A stretch of DNA of 64,000 bases, from assembly GCF_964213995.1 (NCBI RefSeq), contig NC_135804.1:68262001-68326000 (forward strand), given 5' to 3'. The notes beneath the pieces are model-generated. The model was not told the origin of the DNA. It saw only the letters and a program-made list of their open reading frames with translations, and ran no database searches. This DNA is from Mustelus asterias (lineage: Eukaryota). Below, in pieces: positions 51,736-58,793 of the stretch. The position numbers were made by a program, and so were the translations under genes. Numbering within the stretch: the stretch's first letter is position 1; each line of letters begins with the position of its first letter.

Positions 51736-51829
51736 ATCAACGGTGTGTTCCTAATTCGTTTTCACGGTTGTGCATGTTCAGTTTTAGTCAATCAGAGTAA
51801 CGTGTTGCTGTTTTATGTTATGTTAATTT

Positions 51830-52100
51830 CGAATCATAGAATCCCTGCAGTGCTTTCGGCCTATTAAGCCTGCACCGACAATAATTCCACCCAGGCCCGA
51901 TCCCCACAATAACTCTGTTAGTCCCCCTGACACTGGAGGGCAATTTAGCATGGCCAATCCACTTAACCCGCACATTTCTGGAGTGTGGAACGGAACCGGA
52001 GTACCTACAGGGAATCCACGCAGACACGGGGAGAATGTGCAAAACTCCACACAGTGTCCCGAGGTCGGAATTGAACCCAGGACCCTGGCGCTGTGCCATC
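51830..52100 (-). mobile_element. tRNA-derived SINE
   Basis: atagaatccctgcagtgc tail; gggcaatttagcatggccaatcc core. Confidence 0.8.
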
Positions 52101-53196
52101 GTACCGTTCCAAAACTTAAAATTATGTCTTAATAAGTAAGATTTCTGATTACCATAGATGTCTGTTACATGGAATAGTCCTCTAATATTTGCAGTAATTT
52201 AGCTGTTTCTCAATCATGTGCTGCAGTGATGCAAACAATATATTTAGGCCACTTCATCACGACAGCAGAGAAACACAATATGTCGTTGCAATAGATTCAC
52301 TATTACACGCAGTGCACATTGTTTCAAAATATACACTCAATCCAGTTAGAGACCAAACACCGAGCAAATTATTTACGTATTATGCAACCCACTATTTCTC
52401 AATTTACAGATGGAAACATTCAGCCTTTTAACTCTTGCATTTGATTGCTTTCAAACTTCCTCCATTGTTTCTGTCATACGTCGAAACATAATTCTGAAAA
52501 TTCAGAAGATTAACGTTCCCGCTGCTTTACTTTGTAGAATAACTGTGTATTTTTATTTTATTTCCTTGCCCTAGTGCTCCGTTGCATAGATTGCTTTCAA
52601 AAAACAAATGTCCCTTTACTGTCATGTATTTTGAGAGAAAAGTTCTGAAGTTGTAGCTGTTTCGTGACCAATAGCATGAATTAATGTATGCAAGGCGGGA
52701 AAACTCGTTTGGTCATTTGGCGCAACCCAACACATGAAACATTAATGAGTTAGCCATTACCGTTTAGGAATCACATAGAAACACAGCCTCAATACCAAAG
52801 CTAGGCCAGAATGTGTTGCCCATCCCGAAAAGCCCCTGAGGCAACGGTACTGTGTTGCGTTCTTGTAAAATTCTTGAGATGAGGATGCAGGACTGTTTCA
52901 TGTTGTTTCCGTTTTGTTGTAAGTAAATTCACCGTCCCTTTACGCTAATTGTAGCAGCTTGAGTTCACACATGATATGGAACAATTGAGTCTGAGGAAAC
53001 GGATGTGGTTTAAGCAAAAACAAGAGCTATTTATTTCGCTCCAACAACGAGTACATGTCACCCGTTTGTAGTCGAACCGGCGATGAGCGCGTAATCATAT
53101 GAAACGATTCGACTCTGCTGATGAAAGCATTGCACATTCATATGCCACCTTTATTGAAAAGTACGTCAAGCATTTCAGAATTATTGCGTTCAGAGT

Positions 53197-56196
53197 AGAA
53201 ACATAGAAACATGGAAAAACTACAGCATAAAACAGGCCCTTAGGCCTCACAAGTTGTGCCGAACATATCCCTACCATTTAGGCCGACATATAACCCTCCA
53301 TCCTATTAAGTCCCATGTACTCATCCAGGAGTCTCTGAAAAGACCCTATTGAGTTTGCCTCCACCACCACTGACGGCAGCCTATTCCACTCGCCCACTAC
53401 CTTCTGTGTGAAAAACTTCCCCCTAACATTTCCCCTGTACCTACCCCCCAGCACCTTAAACCTGTATCCTCTCGTAGCAGCCATTTCCACCCTGGGAAAA
53501 AGCCTCTGAGGGTCCACCCAATCTATGCCTCTCAACATCTTATATACCTCTATTAGGTCTCCTCTCATCCAACGTCTCTCCAAGGAGAAAATTCCGAGCT
53601 CCCTCAGCTTATCCTCATAAGGCATGCCACTCAATCCAGGCAACATCCTTGGAAATCTCCTCTGCACCCTTTCGATTATTTCCACATCCTTCCTGTAATG
53701 AGGCGACCAGAACTGAGCACAGTACTCCAAGTGGGGTCTGACGAGGGTCTTATATAGTTGCATCATTATCCCTGGACTCCAAAACGCAATCCCTCGATTG
53801 ATAAAGGTCAGCACACCATATGCCTTCTTAACCGCCTCCTCCACCTGCGGGGCCGATTTTAGAGTCCTATGGACCCGGACCCCAAGGTCCTTCTGATCCT
53901 CTACAGTACTAAGAGTATTTCCCTTTATATTGTATTCCTTGATCCCATTTGACCTGCCCAAATTGACTACGATGCATTTATCTGGGTTGAGGTCCACCGG
54001 CCACTTCTCCGCTCAGTCTTGCATCCTATCTATGTCCCTCTGTAACTCCTGACATTCCTCCAGACTATCCACAACCCCTCCAACCTTCGTGTTGTCGGCA
54101 AACTTACCAACCCATCCCTCCACAAAGAACAAAGAACAAAGAACAGTCCAGCACAGGAAACAGGCCCTTCAGCCCTCCAAGCCTGTGCCGCTCCTTGGTC
54201 CAACTAGACCAATAGTTTGTATCCCTCCATTCCCAGGCTGCTCATGTGACTATCCTGGTAAGTCTTAAACGATGTCAGCGTGCCTGCCTCCACCACCCTA
54301 CTTGGCAGCGCATTCCAGGCCCCCACCACCCTCTGTGTAAAAAACATCCCTCTGATATCTGAATTATACTTCGCCCCTCTCACCTTGAGCCCGTGACCCC
54401 TCGTGATCGTCACCTCCGACCTGGGAAAAAGCTTCCCACTGTTCACGCTATCTATCCCCTTCATAATCTTGTACACCTCTATTAGATCTCCCCTCATTCT
54501 CCGTCTTTCCAGGGAGAACAACCCCAGTTTACCCAATCTCTCCTCATAGCTAAGACCCTCCATACCAGGCAACATCCTGGTAAACCTTCTCTGCACTCTC
54601 GCTAACGCCTCCACGTCCTTCTGGTAGTGCGGCGACCAGAACTGGATGCAGTACTCCAAATGTGGCCTAACCAGCGTTCTATACAGCTGCATCATCAGAC
54701 TCCAGGTTTTCTACTCGATACCCCGTCCTATAAAGGCAAGCATACCATAGGCCTTCTTCACCACCTCCTCCACCTGTGTTGCCACCTTCAAGGATTTGTG
54801 GACTTGCGCACCTAGGTCCCTCTGTGTTTCTATACTCCTGATCACTCTGCCATTTATTGTATAACTCCTCCCTACATTATTTCCACTTCCTCATCCAGGT
54901 CATTTATGAAAATGACAAACAGCAAGGGTCCCAGAACAGATCCCTGGGGCACACCACTGGTGACCGACCTCCATTTAGAAAAAGACCCATCTATACACAC
55001 TCTCTGCAAGCTGGTTCTGGATCCACAAGGCAGCATCACCTTGGATCCCATGCCCTCTCACTTTTTCTAGAAGCCTTGCATGGAGGACCTTATCGAACGC
55101 CTTGCTAAAAGCCATATAAAGCACATCTGCCGCTTTCCCTTTGTCAATTTGTTTCGTCACATTTTTGAAGAACTCCACCAGGCTCGTAAGGCACGATCTG
55201 CCTTTGACAAAGCCGTGCTGCGTATTCTTGAGCATACTAAACCTCTCTAAATGCTCATAAATCCTATTCCTCAGGATCTTCTCCATCAGCTTACCAAACA
55301 CTGAGGTTAGCCTCACCAGTTGGTAATTTCCTGGGCAATCCCTATTCCCCTTCTTGAAAATAGGAACCACATCTGCAATCCTCCAATCCTCTGGCACCTC
55401 TCCCATCTCCATCGACGATGCAGAGATCATCACCAGAGGCTCTGCAATCTCTTCCCTTGCCTCCCACAGTAACCTGGGGTACATCCCATCCGGACCCGGC
55501 GACTTAGCTATCTTGATGCCATTCAAAGATTCCAGCACAACCTCTTTGTTAAAGTCCGCATACTCAATCTTTTCAGTCCACCGCCTGCCCGCAGTACATC
55601 CACCCAGGTCCTTTTCCTCTGTGAAAACCGAGGCAGAATACTCATTAAGCACTTCTGCCATTTCTACTGGTTCCATACAGACTTTCCCACCTTCACCTTT
55701 TATTGGCCCTATTCCTTCACGCCTCATCCTTTTACTTTTCACATATTTGTAGAACGCCTTTGGGTTTTCCTTAATCCTACCTGCCAAGGCCTTCTCGTGA
55801 CCCCTTCTGGCTCTCCTAATTTCCTTCTTTAGTCCCTTCCTACAAGGTGTATACTCATCTAGAACCCTATCTTCTCCAAGCTCTCTGAGCCTTTTGTACA
55901 CTTTCCTTTTCTTCGCGACTAGGTCCCGCACAGCTTTCGTGCACCATGGTTCCTTTAGCCTACCAACTCCTCCCTGTCTACTCGGAACGTTGTCCTGTAG
56001 AACTCTGGACAGACATTCCCTGAAAAACTGCCACCTCTCTTCAGTACGTTTCCCCGAGAATACCTCCTTCCAATTTACTCCTCTAATTTGCTGCCTTTTG
56101 TCTTCATATTTCCCCTTCCTGCATATGAACGCTTTCCCAGCTAGCCTGATCTTCTCTTTTTCCAATGCAAGCATAAAGGAGATAGAGTTATGATCG
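53197..56196 (-). mobile_element. 5'-truncated CR1 (host of a nested CR1)
   Basis: ORFs 54975-56174 and 53278-53997 are contiguous once 54124-54881 is removed. Confidence 0.95.
54124..54881 (-). mobile_element. Nested CR1 3' fragment (short-UTR TTCTTTG subfamily)
   Basis: aaagaac tail at 54124; TCCAC duplicated at both junctions. Confidence 0.9.
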
Positions 56197-56574
56197 AGTT
56201 AAACTGAGGCTGTTAGTGGGATGGGGGCTTCAATGAGGGATACACTCTGCATTTTAATTCTGAGGGCCCGTTGGGGCGTGTCTCAGTCTCTTTGCCTCTA
56301 TCGCTCCCTCTATCTCTGCCTGTTGCAGTCTCTTTGTCTCATTCTCTCTCTGTCGCTGTCTGTAAACATTTACTCAATAATAAAATCTTTGCAAACTATA
56401 TGCCTGTCAATTTCGATATTACAATCATGCAGGAATTGAGAGAGAGAGATCGAGCTCCACTATGAGAAAGCCTGCACTGAATTTTAAAATTCCCACTATT
56501 TTTGGGATCTTCGTATGCACAGGGCGATTGCAGAATTCCAAAATTACAATACTGAGGTCACATTATACGTTTCA

Positions 56575-56704
56575 CCCGGAAGAAACCTCTGCAGACACGG
56601 GGAGCACGTGAAAACTCCACACAGACACAGTGACCAAAGCCGAGAAATGAACGCGATTCGCTGGCGCTGAGAGGCAGCAGCGCGAACCATGTGCCACCAT
56701 GCCC
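56575..56704 (-). mobile_element. SINE 5' fragment
   Basis: acccggaagaaacc..cagacacgggga..gaggcagcagc. Confidence 0.7.
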
Positions 56705-56869
56705 TTGAACAAAATGGCTTGCTAGGTCATTTCGGAGGACAGTTGAGAGTCAGACATGTTGCTGTGGCTCTGGAATGGCATGTGGACCAGACCAGGTAAG
56801 GAGGGCAGATTTCCTTCTCTCTGGACATTACTGAAGCAGGGGGAGGGTGAATGGGTGCAGAGAGAAATT

Positions 56870-56936
56870 GAGAGTGATAGTGAGTGAGAGTGACAGGGAG
56901 AAAGAGAGAGTGAGAGAGAGAGAGAGAGAAAGAGAG
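56870..56936. repeat. (GA)n-rich microsatellite
   Basis: gagagagagtgagagagagagagagag. Confidence 0.85.
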
Positions 56937-57295
56937 CGGTGGGGACAGGAAAGATTGTGAGGGAACACAAGGAATTGACAGCAAAACTGAGGTGGGGTGC
57001 GGATAGAGAGTGAGAAAAGACACACGGTCTCCAGTGTGGGCTCAGTGCTCAGCTCCCAGTCTCTGGAGAAAAGCCACAGTCACAACCCACTGGGATTCAT
57101 GAATCACAGAAATAAATAAACAAATGAATGCTGGGAGGCTGATTTCAAAAATCTTCCAAAGGAAGATTCCTCTCCGGATATGGTCACCTTGCTATCCATG
57201 GGATCCTGCTGTGCATCAATGACCAGAAACATTTCCTCATCTGCAACTTGTAACCAAACAACTTAAAAATCAAACTAGCTCAATGACTGTACATC

Positions 57296-57538
57296 ACTTG
57301 GGCAGAGAGGTGGCAGATGGAGTCCAATCCGGACAAATGCGAGGCAATGCACCCCGGAAGGTCCAATCCAAATCAGAAACACACAGCAAAAAGCAGAACC
57401 CCAAAGAGTATTGACAGGCAGAGGGATCCGAGCCGGCAGGTACACAGGTCACTGAAAGTGGCAACGCAGGTAGATAAGGCAGCCAAGAAGGCACCCAGGA
57501 TGCCCGCCCCCATCGGCCGGGGCACCGAGTTTAAAAAT
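57296..57538 (+). mobile_element. CR1 RT fragment with clustered T>C hypermutation
   Basis: MESNPDKCEAMHPG...KAAKKAPRMPAPIGRGTEF vs MEFNPDKCEVMHFG...KVVKKAYGMLAFIGRGIEF in other copies. Confidence 0.85.
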
Positions 57539-58793
57539 ACTGAATGATTTGCCTGCTGATGGTCATAATGCTTCTTTATCTTCACGAGGAATTATCTACA
57601 AAAAAACACAAGTGATCAAATGCGACATAATGCCGAGCTCCTTAGCCTGATGTGTGATGCAAGCCTGAACTTCCCTAATATCACTAAAAACAGACTATCG
57701 CGTCGCAAGTTTGGAGACATTTTGTAGTAAACAGTCAAGCATTAATTCCCAGTAATGTTCACTTGAACGTTTCAACGTGCTGATAGGCCACAAAGAGGAA
57801 GTAATAATTTTATATGATGAAATATTGTGCCATAATAGGACAAGTGACATACACAAAATATAACCAACCTCATGCAATCGCGTTGGTATGTCCGAAATTG
57901 GGAACTGTGGCAGAAAGTATATTGCAGTGGAATAGTTTGGCAATCGTTCATTGCGCCGTACAACCTGCGATGTGTTTGCATCGTTCGATATAGATTACGT
58001 CCAAATTCTAACGAAATCTTCAATGTCAGATTTAGTTCCAAGGAAAAAGTTGAAAATTTACCGCACTGTTTCTAAAATAAATTCCCCTTCCAGGTTCACA
58101 TTAAGCAGAATTATACTAACATCTCACACAGAAGATTTTAGCCCTGACCCAGATGTCATCTTTATTCAGCTTGCAGCAAACTATTCGATTTCTAACGTAG
58201 ATATGTCGCCTCTGTTTGAAACAGAAAATTCGATTAGTAACACTCTCACTTTTGAGTCATGAAACAAAAGGTCCCATTCCAGAACCTGAGCAGGATAATA
58301 AATCACTAACGGAATACTACACTGTAGGAAGTATTGATTTTCAGAAGGCACGTGCAACACAGGCCCAATCAGCAAGTTATCTCGGATCTAAAATATCCCA
58401 TGACGCTATTTCGCAGTAAAGCAGAGAAGTTATCCCTGCAGTGCTGCATGATGTTTTTGTCGTTGAATCAACTTCCCTGTTACAGTTAACCTGATCATTT
58501 ACATAATACGGGTTGTGGGAGTTTGATGAAGGCAATTTGGCTGCCGAGCATTCCATTTGACTGGTCATGGACTCACAATCCTGAGGCCCAGGCGCATACC
58601 CCTGGGTCAGGGGTTCAAAGCCAACAACGGCAGCTGGTGTAATTTAAAATTCAATTAATAAATCAATAATCAATTGTCTTGTCAATAGCAATTATGTGAC
58701 TTTTGTCCCTTGTGAAAACCGATCTGGTGCACTGTTATCCCTTCCTTTCGGGAGGGATAACGGTCTGGATTTCTTGATCCTGCCGACATGTGA

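What the first reader, a model, noticed from the sequence alone, without database searches (positions are those of the whole stretch)
57296..57538. CR1 fragment with an ADAR-type hyper-editing signature fixed in genomic DNA
Seen: against conserved residues of other CR1 copies here, about a dozen replacements in ~75 codons are explained by T>C (F>S, V>A x4, F>P x2, Y>H, L>P x3, I>T; e.g. CATTTTGG>CACCCCGG, CTTGCCTTC>CCCGCCCCC). Most surviving Ts precede C or G, while most changed Ts precede T or A. On the minus strand this is A>G with 5' neighbour U/A preferred over G. Known: that matches ADAR A-to-I preference and is the opposite of CpG decay or APOBEC (C>T/G>A). Inference: an antisense-CR1 dsRNA was hyper-edited, then reverse-transcribed and integrated in the germline, leaving a fossil of RNA editing.
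Basis: partly seen in the sequence, partly recalled or inferred. Interest (0 to 1): 0.75.

Follow-up and report, generated by a model that had tools for sequence, protein, structure and literature searches.

The report
ADAR-edited RNA fossilised by CR1 retrotransposition
A short piece of a jumping gene has nearly half of its A bases changed to G on one strand only, just where its source RNA is predicted to form a double helix, so it is likely an RNA edited by the enzyme ADAR and then copied back into the inherited genome; similarly scarred copies lie elsewhere in this genome.

Summary
Observation confirmed and extended. Against seven unedited source loci, 24 of 51 T in 57296-57538 read C, versus 3 of 233 in the adjoining 1.1 kb (p=1e-17); short-read contigs carry the Cs. 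Contigs of three other runs join 53192 to 57536, so 53193-57538 is one insertion. On the minus strand it reads: 1.34 kb of a multicopy host locus, then a 5'-truncated CR1 with its tail. The changes are thus A>G on the inferred RNA strand. They stop where the predicted duplex with an inverted CR1 of the source loci stops; the carrier CR1 is clean (A>G 6 of 598). Motif searches found five more independent CR1 insertions with sense-strand A>G (285 of 919 A; T>C 15 of 872) and 5' neighbour preference U~A>C>G (p=2e-15). Best reading: ADAR-hyper-edited RNA retrotransposed into the germline (0.85). Against: no 3'-G preference; the context bias in the window alone is not significant (p=0.15); source transcription is untested. 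My paper searches found no report of this for LINEs, but this scan noted similar A>G L1 copies in two earlier findings on other genomes. New here: host RNA captured, with source family, empty site and internal controls.

The parts
57296..57538 (-). Hypermutated stretch: 5' end of the insertion; antisense CR1 ORF2 fragment (CR1 sense is +) with A>G on the minus strand
   Evidence: 24 of 51 sites versus source loci; 25 of 54 versus family; matched by short-read contigs
56198..57295 (-). Unedited piece of a multicopy host locus, copied in one piece with the edited stretch
   Evidence: 88-93% identical to each of 7 source loci that carry the same flank-CR1 junction; T>C 3 of 233
54883..56196 (-). 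Carrier CR1, 5' part; 5'-truncated and joined directly to the host piece; unedited
   Evidence: A>G 4 of 379 versus 13 family copies; the paralog's open frame matches Pfam RVT_1, E=8e-22
54123..54882 (-). Later, nested 5'-truncated CR1 with its own tail; not part of the original event
   Evidence: Absent from the paralog at C4:69.66 Mb
53196..54122 (-). Carrier CR1, 3' part, ending in a short tandem-repeat tail; unedited
   Evidence: Sequence; A>G 2 of 219 versus 18 alignments
53192..53197 (.). Left edge of the target site (3' junction of the insertion)
   Evidence: Contigs of X5, X11 and X13 run to 53192 and resume at 57536 with one base between
57536..57541 (.). Right edge of the target site (5' junction); three bases fit both insert and target; any target duplication is at most about 4 bases
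   Evidence: X4 (organism B) holds this junction with 6 differences over 57476-57673

Best explanation
The stretch is likely the DNA copy of an RNA hyper-edited by ADAR: it ends a single 4.3-kb insertion, and its A>G changes are confined to the part predicted to be double-stranded in the source RNA. Steps. (1) Shown: a multicopy host locus holds a CR1 fragment and, in 6 of 8 copies examined, an inverted copy of the same family that covers the stretch wholly or partly, about 2.4 kb away where nothing has inserted between them. (2) Inferred: a minus-strand transcript of one such locus folded into a long duplex, and ADAR turned about half of the adenosines of one arm to inosine. (3) Inferred: a CR1 reverse transcriptase, priming at this site on its own RNA, copied about 2.2 kb, then continued on this edited RNA (template switch, or a pre-joined RNA) for 1.34 kb and stopped inside the duplex arm; inosine was fixed as G. 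(4) Shown: the insertion is absent from three other runs, present in organism B, was later duplicated 1.34 Mb away and then hit by another CR1. The same route, acting on CR1 RNA itself, would explain five sense-strand A>G copies elsewhere. The product is a dead relic with no sign of function.
For: Confinement: T>C 24 of 51 in the CR1 part versus 3 of 233 in the flank (p=1e-17), while other changes do not differ (12 of 225 versus 31 of 1013, p=0.11). Carrier clean: A>G 4 of 379 and 2 of 219. Empty site. Inverted partners 80-86% identical, duplex energy -229 to -353 kcal/mol. In the fold of one source locus (C73), 218 of 243 homologous bases pair at long range versus 6 of the next 100. Five more copies, on five contigs, with distinct ends: A>G 92/212, 52/115, 36/211, 52/264, 53/117, versus T>C 3/199, 0/119, 3/196, 7/241, 2/117; their edited sites overlap only partly. 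Pooled 5' neighbour: U 72/155, A 84/190, C 40/169, G 51/297; odds versus G 5.4, 4.7, 1.6; p=1.6e-15 with the search motif left out for four copies, partly for L139. This is the order in Eggington 2011 (PMC3113232). The 29 control copies show no such bias. At one motif the sense A>G search gave 4 true copies and the mirror T>C search 0.
Against: No 3'-G preference in the five copies (p=0.53 given the 5' base), although Porath 2014 reports G enrichment downstream (PMC4365171); Eggington finds the 3' effect minor. Context in the window copy alone p=0.15. The exact source locus was not found (best flank identity 92.5%), and 2 of 8 source loci lack a partner over this stretch in the 20 kb fetched. 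No host gene was identified (0 Pfam families in 12 frames from the shared block), so minus-strand transcription of the source is not shown. No duplex partner is known for the five sense copies, and they were not checked in reads. In cells, ADAR1 restricted L1 without detectable editing (PMC5224506).
Confidence: 0.85

Rival explanations
1. Copying errors during integration: the CR1 reverse transcriptase or a translesion polymerase (pol eta-like, recalled as favouring A>G after A or T), perhaps with skewed dNTP pools, misincorporated during first- or second-strand synthesis.
For: A 5' U/A preference with no 3' preference is also what is recalled for pol eta; the one-strandedness and the tie to new insertions fit.
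Against: The same insertion is clean over about 3.3 kb and turns to 47% exactly at the predicted duplex edge. Only A>G rises. A per-base error rate near one half is far above what is recalled for these enzymes (not checked in a paper; one search found none).
Confidence: 0.06
2. DNA-level adenine deamination or repeat-directed hypermutation after insertion, or at a source locus since lost (for example ADAR on an R-loop, or a TpA-directed process like those in algal notes of this scan).
For: The exact source locus was not found, so a mutated DNA source cannot be excluded. ADAR can deaminate the DNA strand of model hybrids (PMC12925331, passage).
Against: Changes are on one strand only and not limited to TpA (UA 72/155, AA 84/190). 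Neighbouring CR1 DNA in the same insertion is untouched. All five other copies are hit on the CR1 RNA strand. None of 8 source loci is hypermutated.
Confidence: 0.05
3. The edited stretch is real ADAR work, but the insertion arose by 5' transduction: one transcript from a lost locus in which the carrier CR1 already sat at 56197, not a template switch. This changes only the capture step and overlaps with the best explanation.
For: The junction has at most one base of homology; Law-type chimeras can arise by several routes (10.1101/2025.02.02.635956, passages).
Against: None of 17 distinct other left flanks (61 hits, duplicates included) has the carrier at this junction.
Confidence: 0.2
4. Ordinary causes: an old or divergent subfamily, CpG decay, GC-biased gene conversion, or an assembly error.
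For: 18 of 43 differences from the family majority are not T>C.
Against: T is the state in 27 family copies, 8 source loci and older window copies; C>T is 0; A>G on + is 2 of 74, so not GC conversion; short-read contigs agree. Chance of 24 or more of 51 at an 8% rate is 1e-13.
Confidence: 0.01

Closest known systems
APOBEC-edited LTR retrotransposons fixed in vertebrate genomes (Knisbacher and Levanon, PMC4866542; passages read)
   Same: Dense, one-type, strand-biased changes acquired in transit and fixed in the germline copy.
   Different: There G>A on cDNA of LTR elements, other mismatch types being 'very rare'; here A>G on the RNA strand of a non-LTR element and of captured host RNA.
ADAR hyper-edited RNA in inverted repeats (Porath 2014, PMC4365171, passages; Eggington 2011, PMC3113232, first part of Results)
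   Same: A>G clusters limited to a long imperfect duplex of nearby inverted repeats; 5' U/A preferred over C/G.
   Different: Those lie in RNA only; here the pattern is in genomic DNA. No 3'-G enrichment was found here.
A-to-G hyper-edited avian retroviruses, nearly 50% of A in U3 and an inverted repeat (as reviewed in PMC12925331; passage read, originals not seen)
   Same: ADAR-type edits of similar density in an RNA that is reverse-transcribed, tied to an inverted repeat.
   Different: Retroviruses in infection; here a LINE, fixed in the germline, shared by two organisms and seen in several independent copies.
5'-RNA/3'-LINE chimeric retrocopies such as U6/L1 and mRNA/L1 (10.1101/2025.02.02.635956; passages read, supplements closed)
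   Same: Foreign RNA joined 5' of a truncated LINE as one insertion.
   Different: CR1-type carrier, unspliced host RNA, edited; that preprint's main text has 0 occurrences of 'editing' or 'ADAR'.

Membership tests
ADAR hyper-editing product | Dense A>G on one strand, other changes at background | tested here: met
   24 of 51 versus 2 of 74 for the mirror change; other changes p=0.11
ADAR hyper-editing product | Confined to a long RNA duplex | tested here: met
   Predicted, on a stand-in source locus: 218 of 243 paired versus 6 of the next 100; partner in 6 of 8 source loci
ADAR hyper-editing product | 5' neighbour U/A preferred, G disfavoured | tested here: met
   Five other copies p=1.6e-15; window copy alone same direction, p=0.15
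ADAR hyper-editing product | 3' neighbour G enriched (minor feature) | tested here: not met
   Odds 1.28 versus U, p=0.53; window 4 of 6
ADAR hyper-editing product | Edited strand is the transcribed strand; edits seen in RNA and dependent on ADAR | not testable with these tools
   Strand inferred from the carrier CR1's orientation only
Chimeric LINE retrocopy | Single insertion at an empty site | tested here: met
   3 of 4 runs laid join 53192 to 57536; the fourth (X4) holds the insertion junction
Chimeric LINE retrocopy | Foreign sequence 5' of a truncated LINE that keeps its 3' tail | tested here: met
Chimeric LINE retrocopy | Target-site duplication | tested here: inconclusive
   At most about 4 bases with one mismatch, confounded with microhomology
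CR1-clade LINE | RT-bearing ORF2, 5' truncation, short tandem-repeat tail | tested here: met
RVT_1 E=8e-22; tails.
CR1-clade LINE | RT groups with named CR1 elements in a tree | not tested
   No named reference sequences were fetched
APOBEC-edited retroelement | G>A clusters on the sense strand | tested here: not met
   C>T 0 of 36, G>A 7 of 76; no G>A or C>T cluster in 433,271 scored positions

The most novel reading that the evidence does not exclude
ADAR leaves a genome-wide, datable fossil record in vertebrate germlines: roughly one LINE insertion in a thousand to ten thousand was copied from hyper-edited RNA, host transcripts included, so ADAR is a heritable mutagen and a mutational brake on LINEs, the RNA-level counterpart of APOBEC editing of LTR elements.
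Probability: 0.6. Interest if true: 0.85.

Novelty: new variant of a known kind. Interest (0 to 1): 0.72.

Why it matters
Whether ADAR editing ever shapes retrotransposon copies by mutation was called undetermined in a 2016 review (PMC4982230), and cell assays found L1 RNA unedited (PMC5224506). Here edited RNA appears fixed in DNA, with a built-in control: one insertion in which only the duplex-forming arm is changed. It points to germline RNA editing being written into the genome, records the fold and editing level of a single ancient RNA molecule, and gives a simple strand-aware search that any assembly with young LINEs can take.

Tried and rejected
Exact source locus: not found among 8 junction-bearing loci. 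More antisense (T>C) copies: one motif gave 3 hits against 10,047 copies bearing it in any state, of which only the window's is hypermutated; L114 and L115 are not; a second motif gave 0. First sense A>G motif: 0 hits. L135 is a simple repeat. The motif was too loose: 492 hits, 30 examined, 1 hypermutated (L139), 1 borderline (L136, 24 of 277). Host gene: nothing in Pfam for 12 frames of the shared block; a nearby 7tm_1 frame lies on the other strand and outside it. No RNA holder listed. Paper searches listed no report of germline-fixed ADAR-edited LINE copies; judged from listings, and subscription papers are not covered; Carmi 2011 was not held, and supplements of PMC4866542 were not read and could bear on A>G clusters.

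Full report
Check of the observation. A search of the own genome with 57296-57538 returned the window, a 98% paralog 1.34 Mb away and 38 family copies at 82-84% (40 of 3,508 candidates scored). Against the majority of 27 fetched copies (L008 dropped for length), 25 of 54 T are C, A>G is 2 of 77, C>T 0 of 36 and G>A 7 of 76; the paralog shares 24 of the 25. Contigs of public runs match the window with no difference over 57265-57442 (X1, perhaps the assembly's own sample) and 57498-57648 (X3, another sample). A contig of organism B spans 57476-57673 with 6 differences, too few for the unedited state. The cluster is real.

Anatomy. The left flank is multicopy. Eight loci carry the same flank joined to the same CR1 fragment, unedited and continuing to its 3' end; others show the site without it. 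Window 56198-57538 is a 1.34-kb copy of such a locus. Against 7 of these loci, T>C is 24 of 51 in the CR1 part and 3 of 233 in the flank (p=1e-17), while other changes run at 12 of 225 and 31 of 1013 (p=0.11); the sources themselves show 0-3 of 35-50. On the minus strand the segment runs straight into a 5'-truncated CR1 that ends in a tandem-repeat tail near 53196; 54123-54882 is a later nested copy absent from the paralog. Of 4 runs laid on 51800-58500, three (X5, X11, X13) have one contig joining 53192 to 57536 with a single base between. So 53193-57538 is one insertion whose template strand, by the CR1's orientation, is minus, and the changes are A>G on it. The carrier is clean: A>G 4 of 379 and 2 of 219. 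None of 17 distinct other left flanks has the carrier at the 56197 junction.

Substrate. In 6 of the 8 source loci an inverted copy of the same family covers the stretch wholly or partly, at 80-86% identity, with duplex energies of -229 to -353 kcal/mol; a further 52-base piece gave -79.5. Folding 3,851 bases of the C73 locus, 218 of the 243 homologous bases pair at long range, against 6 of the next 100 and 51 of 400 flank bases. The predicted duplex edge is the edge of the changes. This is a prediction on a stand-in: the true source was not found (best flank identity 92.5%), no host gene was identified, and transcription could not be tested.

Other copies. Motif searches for hypermutated states gave: antisense T>C, 3 hits at one motif (10,047 copies bear it in any state), only the window's true, and 0 at a second; sense A>G, 0 at one motif, 5 at a second, 4 true (4,317 exact unedited copies), and 492 at a loose third, of which 30 were examined, 1 true and 1 borderline. 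The five true copies lie on C8, C10, C1, C6 and C23 and are 5'-truncated with different ends: A>G 285 of 919, T>C 15 of 872. Their edited sites overlap only partly, as independent events would; L133 is edited in patches. The 5' neighbour ranks U 72/155, A 84/190, C 40/169, G 51/297, absent in 29 control copies; p=1.6e-15. The excluded window covers the search motif of four copies and only part of L139's. The 3' neighbour has no effect (p=0.53). A sliding scan of 433,271 scored positions (of 825,965 held, with overlaps) found clusters only in these five and the window pair, and no G>A or C>T cluster. A rate of one in a thousand to ten thousand copies is a rough inference from these counts. The five copies were not checked in reads.

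Mechanism. Shown: the cluster, its strand, its limits, the single insertion, the source family with inverted partners, the other copies and their context. Inferred: minus-strand transcription, duplex formation, ADAR as the enzyme, and capture by the CR1 reverse transcriptase (template switch more likely than 5' transduction). Copying error cannot easily switch on at a duplex edge after 3.3 kb of clean synthesis. DNA-level processes would not be expected to spare adjacent CR1 DNA or keep to the RNA strand. The missing 3'-G bias and the weak context in the window alone (p=0.15) count against ADAR but are minor: Eggington 2011 finds the 5' base dominant, U and A over C and G (first part of Results), while Porath 2014 reports both 5'-G depletion and 3'-G enrichment (passages).

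Timing. The insertion is absent from organism C (flanks about 5% different) and organism D (about 9%), present in organism B, and older than the 97% duplication. The host is probably a cartilaginous fish, inferred from run labels.

Known work. APOBEC-scarred LTR elements are well described, with other mismatch types very rare in that screen (PMC4866542, passages). ADAR-type changes are known in avian retroviruses (review passage). LINE chimeras are known without mention of editing. Goodier 2016 calls ADAR's mutational role undetermined (passage); Orecchini found ectopic L1 RNA unedited but allows a low rate (passages); Zaranek 2010 treats A>G clusters as RNA-trace signals (passages). Nine searches listed no report of germline-fixed ADAR-edited LINE copies, within the library's limits. 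After my analysis, two unchecked notes of this scan described similar sense-strand A>G L1 copies in other genomes; I did not test them and do not count them as support.

Verdict. Real, most likely an ADAR fossil (0.85); a new variant of deaminase-scarred retrocopies; interest 0.72.

Noticed in passing
window 54123-54882: Younger 5'-truncated CR1 nested in the carrier CR1; absent from the paralog, so it postdates the duplication.
   Followed up: partly
window about 41690-63762 versus G000:C4:69.652-69.669 Mb: Segmental duplication at 93-97% identity, 1.34 Mb away, at least 17 kb long, with indels.
   Followed up: partly
L052:659-1549 (+); G000:C72 locus of L066-L067: Multicopy rhodopsin-family GPCR frames (7tm_1, E=1.9e-5, below Pfam's cut-off) lie 5-7 kb from the source block in 2 of 10 fetched regions.
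   Followed up: partly
L077-L097 (many unplaced contigs): The host block is amplified in near-identical copies on many unplaced contigs, like a large dispersed or tandem repeat unit of unknown nature.
   Followed up: no
L114 (G000:C4:10.84 Mb): Four T>C within 8 bases at the very 5' end of a truncated CR1, with no cluster beyond.
   Followed up: partly
L136 (G000:C1:149.86 Mb): Mild sense-strand A>G excess, 24 of 277 versus T>C 4 of 259 (p=1.5e-4); possibly a lightly edited copy.
   Followed up: partly
L131-L134, L139, last 80 bases: A>G falls to 7 of 46 at the 3' end of the five edited copies; not corrected for context, but could mean an unedited 3' end is needed for priming.
   Followed up: no
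window 57075-57125 and 57241-57295 (minus strand): Two splice-acceptor-like sites (T-rich tract then CAG) on the minus strand of the host piece, read by eye; not tested.
   Followed up: no
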